From Escherichia coli O157:H7 (GTDB lineage: Bacteria > Pseudomonadota > Gammaproteobacteria > Enterobacterales > Enterobacteriaceae): 64,000 nucleotides of DNA. The stretch's first letter is position 1. Each line of letters opens with the position of its first letter. This document shows positions 42,558-45,500 of this stretch, one piece after another. The position numbers were made by a program. The DNA lies in NCBI RefSeq assembly GCF_013167455.1, contig NZ_CP038328.1; one strand, 5' to 3'.

Positions 42558-45500
42558 TTATGCCTGCCACGGATGAATGATTACGCCTTGCACCACGCGG
42601 TTAACGGTGCCACTGGCTGATGGGGTATCCGGCGTATTGCCCATGTGCAGCGACTGCATCAGTGCAAACGTCTGGGCGTACATCAGGAAGCAAAATGCCT
42701 GCTCAACGTCGATAAAGTGACGTGACGGTGGCAGGATGATATGTGGACCGGCAGCGACGATGTCGCTGCTTTCCGCGGCGATGGCGATTACACGCATTGC
42801 CTGGTTGTCACGGTGAAGTTCAGCCAGCAGATCAAGATCATACTGACGGGTGTAAGGGTGGCTGGAGACAAATACCACCACCAGTGTTTCGTTATCGACC
42901 AGCGATTTTGGTCCATGACGGAATCCGGTTGGAGAATCATAAAAGGCCGCCAGTTTACCCGCCGTCAGTTCCAGCACTTTCAGCGCCGACTCGCGTGCTG
43001 CGCCCTGTAAGCCACCGCTGCCGAGATAAACGATCCGTTTCCACGGTGCGTAACCAAACACACCTTCGCTGAAATCGCCCAGTGAGGTCAGGATCGCCTG
43101 GCAACGATCCGCCACGTCGCGGAAGGTTTGGCTGTTGATCGTCTCAGGTGCGAAAACCGCGAGGCAGCTGGCCATCATGGTGGTAATGCTGCTGGTCATC
43201 GCAAAGCCGCGATCGTGCGTTTCTGCGGGCATCAGCACGGCAAACGCGTTATCGCTGTTGATCGCGTTTTGGTAAAGAGCGCCCGCTTCGTTGCAGGTGA
43301 TCGGCAGGTGATAGCATTCCGGTACAAATTGATTTGCCAGTTCCACGGCTGCGACGCTTTCCGGGCTGTTGCCGGATCGACCGAAGGAGATCAACAGCAG
43401 CGGATGGGCTGGGTTCAGGTAGTCCATCGGATTAGTGACCAGATCGGTGGTCGGTACGGCGCTGAAGTTTTTACCGGTATGGCTGGCGAGCCACGGCGCG
43501 ATGATGTCACCGATAAATGCCGAGGTTCCGGCTCCGGTCAGGATGATCCGCAGATTCTCTTTGCGCAGTAACGGTTCAAGGAAGTTATTAAGCGCGGAAT
43601 GTAGCGCGTCGATGTTGGTGAGCGAACGGATCCATGCGCGAGGCTGATGGCGGATCTCTTCTTCAGTCCATGTACCGGTTGCGGCGGCAGCAGGGGTGTA
43701 ATTTTCTGGCATAACTCAATCCTTAGTCTGATGAACTTGACGTCGGGCGTTGTCGCTTTCACTTGCCTTTCGTTTCATTTCACTTGGTGATGTCTTTCGT
43801 TGATTAAAATCTATAGAAAAGAAACCGAAAGTTCAATGGAGAAAAAGGAAATAAAACGAAATCCGTGATCGTTGAAAGAAAAGATAAAGGAAGCAAAAGG
43901 GATTGCTGGATGCGGCGCAAACGCTTTATCCGGCCTTGCGGTCACCAACTGTAGGTCGGATAAGACGCGTTAGCGTCGCATCCGACACCGCTGCACAGAT
44001 CAAAACGAAAGAAAAAGAAAGGCCTTACGGGGGAAGTGAAGGCCCAATAATGGAGCAAACCATCAAAACGAAGCTAATTGACCCTGAATCCAGATTTGTT
44101 GCACATGCAGCCCGCTATCCAGCGCAACGACGCTGGCGCGTTTGCCCGGTTTAAGCGATCCCAGAACACCATCAACACCCAGCATTCGCGCCGGATGCAG
44201 CGACGCCATATGAATGGCTTCCGCAGGCGTTACGCCCGTCAACTCGACCATGTTGCGCACTGCCGCATCAACAGACAGCGTACTGCCCGCCAGCCCACCG
44301 GACGCGGTACGGACAACGCCACCGTGCATCTGCACTTCTTCGCCACATAACGTATAGCGACCATCCGGCATCCCGGCTGCCTGCATCGCGTCGGTGATCA
44401 GTACGATTCTCTCTTTCGCACAGCAACAACACAGCGACATTGCCGCCGGATGCACATGATGACCATCGGCTATCAGTTCCAGCCAGGCGCGCTTGTCCGT
44501 TAATCCCGCGCCAACCATTCCCGGTTCGCGGTGATGTAAACCTGTCATCCCGTTATAGCAATGCACCAGGCCGTCGGCACCAGCATCAAACGCGGCGCGA
44601 GTTTGTTGCCAGGTCGCCGCGCTATGCCCCAGCATCACTCGTACATTTTGCTGTTTAAGATGGCGGATGGCCTGCAATGCCCCCTCTTTTTCCGGTGCCA
44701 GCGCTACCACGCGTAAGGTGTGCTGAGAAACGGCAATCAATTGATCCAGCTCGGCAATTTCAAGCTCGCGAAACAACTCCGGCGGATGCGCGCCTTTATT
44801 CTGCGGCGTGAAGTACGGTCCTTCGAGATAACTCCCCAGCACTTGCGCACCAGGTCCGCCGCGTTGGCAACGTTGAGCAATACGTTTCAGCGCCGCATGA
44901 ATGGTACTAAGCGGCGCGGTTACGGTAGTCGGCAACCAACTGCCGACACCTTCGCGTGCCTTGTGCATTGCCAGCTTGTCGAGTACATCCGGCGCGTCAT
45001 CCATTACATCAACGCCCGCACCACCGTGTACATGGGTGTCGATGTAAGCGGGGCAGAGCAGTTCCGCATCGCGTTCAGTCACGCTCACTGGAATCGGTTC
45101 GATTGCTGCGATGACACCGTCAGCAATACGCAACTGATGGTCATCGAGCCATCCCTCTTCAGTCAGCAGCCTTCTGGCGCGCAGAACGTGTGTCATATCC
45201 CTTCCTCGACCGGACATTCTTCATGGCAGCGGCCTAACTCGTCCACCAGACTGGTCAGCCCACGATGTCCACACTCCAGCGCCTGTACACGGAATTCTTC
45301 ACCGCTTAACCCTTCGCGCTCCAGCACCATCTCCAGTAGCAGTTGCAAATTGGTGCCGGTGATCACTTCACAGCCCGGTTTTTGCATCGCCAGCGTTGAA
45401 GCTACGCGAAACGGCGTGCCGCCCAGCAAATCCGTCAGAAAAACAATGCCGTCTTCACAATCCAGTTGGGCGATGGCCTCTTCAAGCTGCGATGTAAGCA

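What the first reader, a model, noticed from the sequence alone, without database searches (positions are those of the whole stretch)
43750..43900. Dense array of CTTTC/GAAAG pentamer repeats upstream of agaS (AgaR operator-like)
The agaS upstream region contains tctttcacttgcctttcgtttcatttcac followed by gaaaagaaaccgaaag and gttgaaagaaaagataaaggaagcaaaag, a periodic arrangement typical of DeoR-family (AgaR) operators. The array is longer than a single operator, and the intergenic region also hosts REP elements, so the regulatory architecture may differ from K-12.
Basis: partly seen in the sequence, partly recalled or inferred. Interest (0 to 1): 0.3.

Follow-up and report, generated by a model that had tools for sequence, protein, structure and literature searches.

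The report
Known AgaR operators at agaS promoter
The run of CTTTC/GAAAG repeats is real and is the already-characterised set of binding sites for the AgaR repressor around the promoter of the E. coli agaS (N-acetylgalactosamine/galactosamine) operon. It has the same layout in this O157:H7 sequence as in K-12, so it is ordinary.

Summary
Positions 43750-43900 carry 5 exact CTTTC/GAAAG pentamers and 13 TTTC/GAAA tetramers, about 10 and 7 times the window mean. Only the agaR-kbaZ intergenic region in the 64 kb is comparable.

The window is E. coli O157:H7 and the aga genes lie on the minus strand. The repeats form three operator-like blocks around a predicted sigma-70 promoter for agaS:
- O1, TTTCGTTTTATTTC, at 43861-43848.
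- O2, CTTTCGGTTTCTTTTC, in the -35/-10 spacer at 43831-43816.
- O3, inverted, at 43764-43787.

O3 shares an exact 15-mer with a published AgaR site of PkbaZ and matches the AgaR consensus (recalled from memory) perfectly. All three blocks, and their spacing (O1-O3 79-81 bp), are conserved upstream of agaS in about 60 Enterobacterales species. An intact agaR is present.

The suggestion that the architecture differs from K-12 is refuted. MG1655 is colinear, has the same REP pair, and differs by four SNPs in the array, none in a pentamer.

Outside the given coordinates there is a fourth conserved (TTTCN)3 tract at 44001-44024. It forms the tail of a covarying terminator hairpin after agaA.

Verdict: already known (Ray & Larson 2004), low interest.

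The parts
42558..43712 (-). agaS coding sequence (galactosamine-6-phosphate deaminase/isomerase), first gene of agaS-kbaY-agaBCDI
   Evidence: ORF list. TIGR02815 agaS_fam at 631 bits. RefSeq annotation of the identical O157:H7 region.
43764..43787 (+). O3: AgaR operator, inverted relative to agaS (TGCCTTTCGTTTCATTTCACTTGG), at about +15 to +38 of the predicted transcript
   Evidence: Zero mismatches to the recalled AgaR consensus. Exact 15-mer shared with the PkbaZ/PagaR site, which corresponds to the published AgaR binding sequence. The core GAAAYRAAACGAAAG is found at -100..-51 from the agaS start in 65 of 71 orthologous loci. It is an inverted copy of O1 (93% complementary) and of O2 (79%).
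43756..43765 (+). Extra partial unit CTTTCACTTG, Escherichia-specific, downstream of O3
   Evidence: Direct repeat D3 with 43778-43786. Absent from other genera in alignment A3.
43791..43801 (+). Extra partial unit TGTCTTTCGTT at the predicted +1 to +11, mostly Escherichia-specific
   Evidence: Direct repeat D2 with 43764-43774, 91% identical. Not conserved outside Escherichia and Pluralibacter.
43808..43813 (-). Predicted -10 hexamer TAGATT of promoter Ps; predicted +1 is A at 43801
   Evidence: T1, A2, A4, T5 and T6 of this hexamer, and the A at 43801, are invariant in 19 species (invariant columns T88 A89 A91 T92 T93 A100). This is an inference: the consensus scanner did not call it because it matches 8 of 12, below its threshold of 9.
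43816..43831 (-). O2: CTTTCGGTTTCTTTTC, filling the -35/-10 spacer
   Evidence: The most conserved block of alignment A3. TTTCGWTTTCTTT is found at -150..-101 from the agaS start in 46 of 71 loci. 79% complementary to O3. It is a poor match to the recalled consensus (5 mismatches, counted by hand).
43831..43836 (-). Predicted -35 hexamer TTGAAC, 17 bp from the -10
   Evidence: TT is invariant and G and A nearly invariant in 19 species. Geometry computed. Inference.
43842..43865 (-). O1: AgaR operator CGGATTTCGTTTTATTTCCTTTTT (core TTTCGTTTTATTTC at 43861-43848, about -60 to -47)
   Evidence: Two mismatches to the recalled consensus. A 13-mer is shared with the kbaZ-agaR region. The core is found at -200..-101 in 50 of 71 loci. 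The O1-O3 distance is 79-81 bp in 61 loci. Period-10 tandem unit.
43865..43870 (-). Conserved GATCAC (contains a Dam GATC) abutting O1; function unexplained
   Evidence: Conserved in most of 19 species, with C and A in 90% or more. Only a weak CRP half-site when inspected by hand.
43871..43900 (-).
   Evidence: No consensus match. Present in Escherichia and, in a similar form, in the Enterobacter group only.
43904..43988 (.). Pair of REP elements in inverted orientation (BIME-like), inserted between the agaA terminator and Ps
   Evidence: REP pattern match at 43908-43935, with other copies at 11406 and 27652. Inverted-repeat arms. Sub-threshold naRNA4 hits. Absent in other genera. Identical in MG1655.
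44001..44024 (-). Far-upstream (TTTCN)3 tract GGCCTTTCTTTTTCTTTCGTTTTG: terminator T-tail and candidate auxiliary AgaR site (about -223 to -200)
   Evidence: Three mismatches to the recalled consensus. CCTTTCTTTTCCTTTC is nearly invariant in 24 species and present in 56 of 72 upstream regions. Period-10 unit. AgaR binding here is conjecture.
44020..44045 (-). GC-rich hairpin after the agaA stop: probable intrinsic terminator of kbaZ-agaVWEFA
   Evidence: MFE hairpin within a 68-nt fold of -11.9 kcal/mol. All 8 consensus pairs show compensatory changes across 24 species. Not called by the simple scanner; the predicted stem has a one-base bulge.
44063..45196 (-). agaA (GalNAc-6-P deacetylase), intact 377 aa, last gene of the upstream operon
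   Evidence: TIGR00221 nagA at 289 bits over 377 aa. ORF list.
49328..50137 (+). agaR, the cognate DeoR-family repressor, intact
   Evidence: NF040755 AgaR at 465 bits (cut-off 260) and PRK09802 at 577 bits. Pfam HTH_DeoR plus DeoRC. ORF.
49111..49311 (.). Sister operator array in the agaR-kbaZ intergenic region (49111-49134 +, 49193-49216 -, 49288-49311 -)
   Evidence: Consensus matches with 3, 1 and 0 mismatches. Sequence read. 49294-49308 equals O3 over 15 nt.

Best explanation
The pentamer array is the operator set of the AgaR repressor at Ps, the internal promoter of the aga/gam regulon that drives agaS-kbaY-agaBCDI.

Each operator is a run of three to four tandem TTTCN pentamers. O1 sits at about -60 to -47. 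O2 fills the spacer between the -35 (TTGAAC) and the -10 (TAGATT). O3 is an inverted copy at about +17 to +36.

Without inducer, AgaR (N-terminal DeoR-type HTH, C-terminal sugar-phosphate sensor) occupies these sites. O2 excludes RNA polymerase and O3 can block clearance. The fixed 30/50/80-bp spacing suggests cooperative binding by an AgaR oligomer. Growth on N-acetylgalactosamine or galactosamine releases AgaR and the operon is induced.

What is shown here: the sites exist, are non-random, equal known AgaR-site sequence, are conserved in sequence and spacing across Enterobacterales, and are the same as in K-12.

What is taken from the literature: AgaR binds Ps and represses it.

What is inferred: the exact -35, -10 and +1, the role of each site, and oligomer bridging.
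For: Local enrichment: 5 pentamers and 13 tetramers in 151 bp, the top of the window together with the agaR-kbaZ region.

Consensus: all 6 hits with 3 or fewer mismatches to the recalled AgaR consensus lie in the two aga control regions, against 0.22 expected and 0 of 100 shuffles reaching 6.

Sequence identity: O3 shares an exact 15-mer with the agaR-kbaZ site. That site corresponds to the AgaR binding sequence from PkbaZ used functionally by Guharajan et al. 2021 (PMC8667592 Table S3; K-12-type sequence checked).

Internal copies: O3 is an inverted copy of O1 (14 nt, 93% complementary) and of O2 (79%).

Conservation: 19-species alignment A3 shows exactly four conserved islands, O1, -35/O2/-10, O3 and the RBS. 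In 501 kb of 71 orthologous loci, 65 of 72 O3-core hits, 50 of 54 O1-core hits and 46 of 48 O2 hits lie at the expected distance upstream of agaS. The O1-O3 spacing is 79-81 bp in 61 loci.

Repressor: intact agaR next door, with the same protein accession as in K-12.

[quoted passage not shown] AgaR directly represses agaZ and agaS (PMC4694137).
Against: The primary footprinting paper (Ray & Larson 2004) and Leyn et al. 2012 are not held. The mapped footprint and transcription-start coordinates could therefore not be compared with O1-O3.

The 24-nt consensus used is recalled from memory, and no held paper contains it.

O2 matches that consensus poorly. Its conservation could be due to promoter function alone.

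The promoter hexamers score 8 of 12 and were not called by the scanner.

No binding was measured on the O157:H7 sequence.
Confidence: 0.93

Rival explanations
1. The repeats are sites for a different regulator: CRP, a paralogous DeoR-family repressor such as GatR or SrlR, or a nucleoid protein that prefers T-tracts. On this reading AgaR acts elsewhere.
For: A conserved GATCAC abuts O1, and in K-12 it reads TCACA, a CRP half-site. AgaR's closest NCBIfam paralogue models, SrlR and GlpR, score well below AgaR but share the fold.
Against: In 64 kb the motif occurs only in the two aga control regions. The 15-mer equals a published AgaR site. The left CRP half is absent (2 of 5, by hand) and is not conserved. 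The literature assigns Ps repression to AgaR.
Confidence: 0.03
2. The array is compositional: a polypyrimidine/polypurine tract left over from terminator T-tails and REP insertion, with no sequence-specific function.
For: The upstream-most part (43871-43900) and the 44001-44024 tract are T-rich and adjoin a terminator hairpin and REPs. The third quoted string is not conserved outside Escherichia and the Enterobacter group.
Against: O1, O2 and O3 are conserved base by base and in spacing from Escherichia to Yersinia and Buttiauxella, while the flanking sequence is not. Enrichment is far beyond dinucleotide-preserving shuffles.
Confidence: 0.02
3. The downstream half (GAAA repeats, 43756-43800) acts at the RNA level, as a 5'-UTR element such as a riboswitch, an sRNA target or a protein-binding leader, rather than as DNA operators.
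For: If +1 is near 43801, O3 is transcribed into an 89-nt leader.
Against: No Rfam family reaches significance in the array. The leader folds no better than shuffles (z = +0.45). O3 is a reverse-complement copy of O1 and O2, which lie upstream of the promoter. That fits double-stranded DNA recognition, not RNA.
Confidence: 0.02

Closest known systems
AgaR operators of E. coli K-12 at Ps, Pz and Pr (Ray & Larson 2004, Mol Microbiol 51:813; curated in RegulonDB/EcoCyc, cited from memory)
   Same: Same locus, same repressor protein (the identical RefSeq accession in O157:H7 and in the K-12-type strain) and colinear intergenic DNA including the REP pair. O3 is identical over 15 nt to the Pz/Pr site.
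   Different: There are four SNPs in the array relative to MG1655, all outside the pentamer cores: GG/AA next to O1, C/T after O1, and G/A in O2, where the O157 G matches the cross-genus consensus CTTTCGA. Two further differences lie just after the agaA stop. O157:H7 keeps the full agaWEFA genes that K-12 has deleted.
GlpR operator arrays of the glp regulon (DeoR/GlpR family; from general knowledge)
   Same: Both have multiple operators per promoter, including sites overlapping the promoter and sites downstream of +1, bound by an oligomeric sugar-phosphate-responsive repressor. AgaR matches DeoR/GlpR-family models.
   Different: GlpR half-sites form palindromes. The AgaR sites here are tandem direct TTTCN pentamers with no dyad within a site.
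E. coli DeoR with three distant operators and DNA looping (from general knowledge)
   Same: Same protein family (Pfam HTH_DeoR plus DeoRC). Several spaced operators, possibly including a distant one at 44001-44024, about 160 bp upstream of O1.
   Different: DeoR operators are 16-bp palindromes hundreds of bp apart. Looping at Ps is only conjecture here.
REP/BIME intergenic repeats of E. coli
   Same: Two roughly 35-nt imperfect palindromes in inverted orientation between convergent functional elements (a terminator and a promoter), with other copies in the window.
   Different: Nothing unusual. E. coli strains carry two alleles of the second REP.

Membership tests
AgaR operator of the E. coli aga/gam regulon | Lies in the control region of an AgaR-regulated operon (upstream of agaS) | tested here: met
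   agaS at 42558-43712 (-), with the array at 43750-43900 immediately upstream. Ps is stated to be AgaR-bound in PMC3668189.
AgaR operator of the E. coli aga/gam regulon | Matches the AgaR binding consensus (WRMMTTTCRTTTYRTTTYNYTTKK, recalled from memory) | tested here: met
   O3 has 0 mismatches, O1 has 2 and the far site has 3. All 6 window hits are in aga control regions, against 0.22 expected. Caveat: the consensus could not be verified in a held paper. O2 has 5 mismatches.
AgaR operator of the E. coli aga/gam regulon | Sequence equals a documented AgaR binding site | tested here: met
   The PkbaZ site in PMC8667592 Table S3 is CTTTCGTTTCATTTTCGTTT. The genomic site is CTTTCGTTTCATTTCGTTTT. 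O3 shares CTTTCGTTTCATTTC with it exactly.
AgaR operator of the E. coli aga/gam regulon | Cognate intact AgaR encoded in the locus | tested here: met
   269-aa ORF at 49328-50137. NF040755 AgaR at 465 bits against a cut-off of 260.
AgaR operator of the E. coli aga/gam regulon | Coincides with the DNase I footprints mapped in K-12 | not testable with these tools
   The DNA is colinear with MG1655, but Ray & Larson 2004 is not held, so the footprint coordinates could not be read.
AgaR operator of the E. coli aga/gam regulon | Physical binding of AgaR and AgaR-dependent repression of this O157:H7 sequence | not testable with these tools
   Needs EMSA or footprinting and reporter fusions. The indirect support is inducibility of agaS in EDL933 (PMC3668189).
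AgaR operator of the E. coli aga/gam regulon | Conserved with the regulon in other species | tested here: met
   O1, O2 and O3 are conserved in sequence and spacing in Enterobacterales.
Classical palindromic DeoR/GlpR-type operator | Dyad symmetry within one operator | tested here: not met
   No inverted repeat lies within a site. The only inverted pairs are O3 against O1 and O3 against O2, 37-66 bp apart. Within a site the units are direct 5-bp or 10-bp repeats.
Sigma-70 promoter (Ps) | -35 and -10 hexamers 16-18 bp apart, upstream of a mapped start | tested here: inconclusive
   TTGAAC, 17 bp, TAGATT. The key bases are invariant in 19 species, but the match is 8 of 12, below the scanner's threshold. 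The transcription start could not be checked.
REP/BIME element | Roughly 35-nt imperfect palindrome matching the REP consensus, in multiple genomic copies, often in inverted pairs | tested here: met
   3 copies in the window; arms; naRNA4 sub-threshold hits.
Intrinsic terminator (3' of agaA) | GC-rich hairpin followed by a T-tract directly after a stop codon | tested here: met
   Hairpin at 44045-44020 plus a T-rich tail. All 8 pairs covary in 24 species. The scanner missed it; the predicted stem has a one-base bulge. The energy z-score alone is weak (-1.24). The tail contains conserved C's, which is atypical.

The most novel reading that the evidence does not exclude
The nearly invariant CCTTTCTTTTCCTTTC tail of the covarying hairpin after agaA (window 44001-44024) may be more than a terminator U-tract. 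It could be a fourth, auxiliary AgaR operator. Its conserved C's at pentamer spacing are not what a U-tract needs. Bound AgaR there could bridge to O1-O3, across a REP pair in E. coli. That would tighten Ps repression or modulate read-through from kbaZ-agaVWEFA into agaS.

A lesser variant: the O157:H7 G in O2 (CTTTCGG against CTTTCAG in K-12 and the other five E. coli strains aligned) restores the cross-genus consensus. It might contribute to the higher induction ratios reported for EDL933.

Either may already be covered by the 2004 footprints, which I could not read.
Probability: 0.25. Interest if true: 0.3.

Novelty: already known. Interest (0 to 1): 0.08.

Why it matters
It matters little beyond annotation. 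It confirms that the O157:H7 aga/gam regulon keeps the K-12 type Ps control region, with the same repressor and operators. Strain differences in GalNAc/GalN use should therefore be sought in the structural genes (agaC, agaI, agaF, and the K-12 deletion) rather than in this operator array. The cross-genus footprint gives a clean, literature-independent definition of the AgaR site, (TTTCN)3-4, and of the Ps promoter. It also flags the terminator-tail tract as a candidate extra site.

Tried and rejected
1. Reading the primary sources. Ray & Larson 2004 (PubMed 14731281) and Leyn et al. 2012 (PMC3431674) are not held. The consensus string occurs in no held paper. Other searches gave only secondary statements.

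2. The simple promoter/terminator scan found nothing in 43600-44200. The promoter is below its 9-of-12 threshold, and the hairpin, whose predicted stem has a one-base bulge, was not called. I relied on conservation instead.

3. RNA element in the leader. Rejected, because Rfam finds nothing in the array and the fold is no better than shuffles.

4. CRP site at the conserved GATCAC. Rejected as a full site, because the left half matches 2 of 5 and is not conserved (by hand). A good CRP-like site, TGTGAATCAGATCAGA, exists in the kbaZ-agaR region instead.

5. 'Architecture differs from K-12'. Rejected.

6. Palindromic DeoR-type operator. Rejected.

7. My first regular expression for O2 was too strict and found only 8 sites. 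The looser pattern found 46.
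Full report
**What and where.** The agaA-agaS intergenic region of the window (43713-44062) is 100% identical to E. coli O157:H7 genomes. It is present in 5,343 of 5,426 complete E. coli genomes. The aga genes lie on the minus strand:
- agaS, 42558-43712.
- agaA, 44063-45196.
- kbaZ, ending at 49079.
- agaR, on the plus strand at 49328-50137.

The finding's coordinates are therefore the roughly 190 bp immediately upstream of agaS.

**Observation.** The quoted strings are present, apart from one misread first base. Positions 43750-43900 hold 5 exact CTTTC/GAAAG, against a mean of 0.45 per 151 bp. They also hold 13 TTTC/GAAA, against a mean of 1.86, which is the maximum of the window. 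The only comparable place in 64 kb is the agaR-kbaZ intergenic region. The repeats are locally periodic. There are 5-bp steps in O3, and Tandem Repeats Finder reports period-10 units at 43843-43862 and 44002-44021.

**Anatomy, read in the agaS direction.**
1. After the agaA stop comes a GC hairpin (44045-44020). Its T-rich tail is TTTCTTTTTCTTTCGTTTTG (to 44001).
2. Next is an inverted pair of REP elements at about 43988-43904.
3. Then a T-rich tract at 43900-43871.
4. Then GATCAC at 43870-43865.
5. O1, TTTCGTTTTATTTC, at 43861-43848.
6. TTGAAC at 43836-43831.
7. O2, CTTTCGGTTTCTTTTC, at 43831-43816.
8. TAGATT at 43813-43808.
9. An invariant A at 43801.
10. A partial unit at 43801-43791.
11. 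O3, AAGTGAAATGAAACGAAAGG, at 43785-43766.
12. A partial unit at 43765-43756.
13. The RBS and the ATG at 43712.

O3 is a reverse-complement copy of O1 (14 nt, 93% complementary) and of O2 (79%).

**Evidence that these are AgaR operators.**

(a) I searched with the AgaR consensus I recall from RegulonDB/EcoCyc (WRMMTTTCRTTTYRTTTYNYTTKK). This consensus comes from memory and is not verifiable in the held library. It has 6 matches with 3 or fewer mismatches in 64 kb, against 0.22 expected. Three are in this intergenic region: 43764-43787 with 0 mismatches, 43842-43865 with 2, and 44001-44024 with 3. The other three are in the agaR-kbaZ region.

(b) Independently of that memory, O3 shares an exact 15-mer, CTTTCGTTTCATTTC, with the agaR-kbaZ site. 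That site corresponds to the AgaR binding sequence from PkbaZ that Guharajan et al. 2021 used to obtain AgaR-dependent repression (PMC8667592 Table S3). The printed sequence has one extra T relative to the K-12-type genome.

(c) Phylogenetic footprinting. A genome scan with AgaS returned 71 loci from Escherichia, Citrobacter, Salmonella diarizonae, Klebsiella, Raoultella, Kluyvera, Enterobacter, Lelliottia, Yokenella, Pluralibacter, Mixta, Pantoea, Kosakonia, Cedecea, Buttiauxella and Yersinia. In the three loci I checked (Citrobacter, Yersinia, Enterobacter soli) the ORFs upstream of agaS have the sizes expected for agaE, agaF and agaA.
- In a 19-species alignment the conserved islands are exactly O1 (with GATCAC), -35/O2/-10, O3 and the RBS.
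- In all 501 kb of these loci, 65 of 72 O3-core matches, 50 of 54 O1-core matches and 46 of 48 O2 matches lie at the expected position upstream of agaS.
- The O1-O3 distance is 79-81 bp in 61 loci.

(d) The cognate repressor is intact. It matches NF040755 AgaR at 465 bits and Pfam HTH_DeoR plus DeoRC.

(e) Literature.
- Ps-lacZ is induced 20-fold by GalNAc.
- agaS is derepressed 175-fold in delta-agaR E. coli C, and it is inducible in EDL933 (PMC3668189).
- PMC4694137 says the same and notes that the physiological inducer is unclear.

**Mechanism.** The -35 and -10 assignment (TTGAAC, 17 bp, TAGATT, +1 = A at 43801) is inferred. It rests on the invariance of precisely the diagnostic bases across 19 species. 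The scanner's threshold was not met.

With that frame, O1 is at -60/-47, O2 at -30/-15 and O3 at +17/+36. The most likely mode is occlusion of RNA polymerase at O2. O1 and O3 would then be bound cooperatively by an AgaR oligomer. The oligomeric state and any looping are inferred from what is generally known of DeoR/GlpR-family repressors and were not tested here.

**Comparison with K-12.** MG1655 (NC_000913.3) and a second K-12-type strain are colinear over the whole intergenic region and have the identical REP pair. The differences are as follows.
- Four SNPs in the array, none of which touches a TTTC/GAAA core:
  - GG to AA next to O1.
  - C to T after O1.
  - G to A in O2.
- Two substitutions just after the agaA stop.

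AgaR has the same RefSeq protein accession in both strains. Among seven diverse E. coli, variation concentrates in the second REP, which has two alleles, while the promoter-operator part is nearly invariant.

**Alternatives.**
- No Rfam family fits the array, and the 89-nt leader is unstructured, so an RNA element is unlikely.
- A CRP site at GATCAC lacks a left half.
- Pure compositional bias is excluded by the conservation.

**Beyond the finding.** The hairpin after agaA covaries: 8 of 8 pairs show compensatory changes in 24 species. It is followed by a nearly invariant CCTTTCTTTTCCTTTC, present in 56 of 72 upstream regions. This looks like the terminator of kbaZ-agaVWEFA. Its tail is itself a (TTTCN)3 unit, so it is a candidate auxiliary AgaR site. 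The distance to O1 varies: about 47 bp in Enterobacter soli, about 100 bp in Citrobacter and about 160 bp in E. coli, where the REP pair is inserted. Whether AgaR binds there is untested and may already be in the 2004 paper.

**Verdict.** This is a real, non-random feature, correctly guessed to be AgaR operators. It is already characterised in K-12 and unchanged in O157:H7. Interest is low.

Noticed in passing
window 44001-44045 (- strand): The hairpin after the agaA stop covaries in 24 Enterobacterales (8 of 8 pairs compensatory). It is followed by a nearly invariant CCTTTCTTTTCCTTTC tract, that is (TTTCN)3. It is probably the kbaZ-agaVWEFA terminator, and its tail may double as an AgaR site.
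   Followed up: partly
window 43865-43870: GATCAC, which contains a Dam GATC site, directly upstream of O1 is conserved in most genera. In K-12 it reads TCACA (a CRP half-site) and in O157:H7 TCACG. No convincing partner half-site was found, and its function is unexplained.
   Followed up: partly
window 43904-43988; loci L005-L008: The REP pair is an Escherichia-specific insertion between the terminator and Ps; other genera lack it. E. coli strains carry two different alleles of the second REP. O157:H7 and K-12 share one of them. Most genomes match the query at below 95% identity, mainly because of this segment.
   Followed up: partly
window 44063-45196 versus L001 5871-7000: agaA is intact (377 aa) in the window. 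In O157:H7 strain PV15-279 it carries a 4-bp deletion and is annotated as frameshifted. The window therefore comes from a different O157:H7 genome.
   Followed up: partly
L001 11645-12400 and 10093-10863 (equivalent to window about 38660-39420 and 40200-40970): In O157:H7, agaI is annotated with an internal stop, and agaC is shorter than in K-12. This agrees with the agaC and agaI mutations described for EDL933 in PMC3668189.
   Followed up: no
window about 49184-49199 (- strand): TGTGAATCAGATCAGA in the agaR-kbaZ intergenic region is a good CRP-like site next to AgaR-type repeats. This fits my recollection that Pz needs cAMP-CRP.
   Followed up: no
window 43825 (O2), 43863-43864, 43844: The O157:H7-specific G in O2 (CTTTCGG) matches the cross-genus consensus CTTTCGA, whereas K-12 and the other five E. 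coli strains aligned have A. PMC3668189 reports 8- to 12-fold higher induction of agaS and agaA in EDL933 than in E. coli C. A link between the two is pure speculation.
   Followed up: no
PMC8667592 Table S3 versus L002 4058-4077: The published AgaR PkbaZ binding sequence (CTTTCGTTTCATTTTCGTTT) has one extra T relative to the K-12-type genome (CTTTCGTTTCATTTCGTTTT). This is either a transcription slip or a design change.
   Followed up: yes
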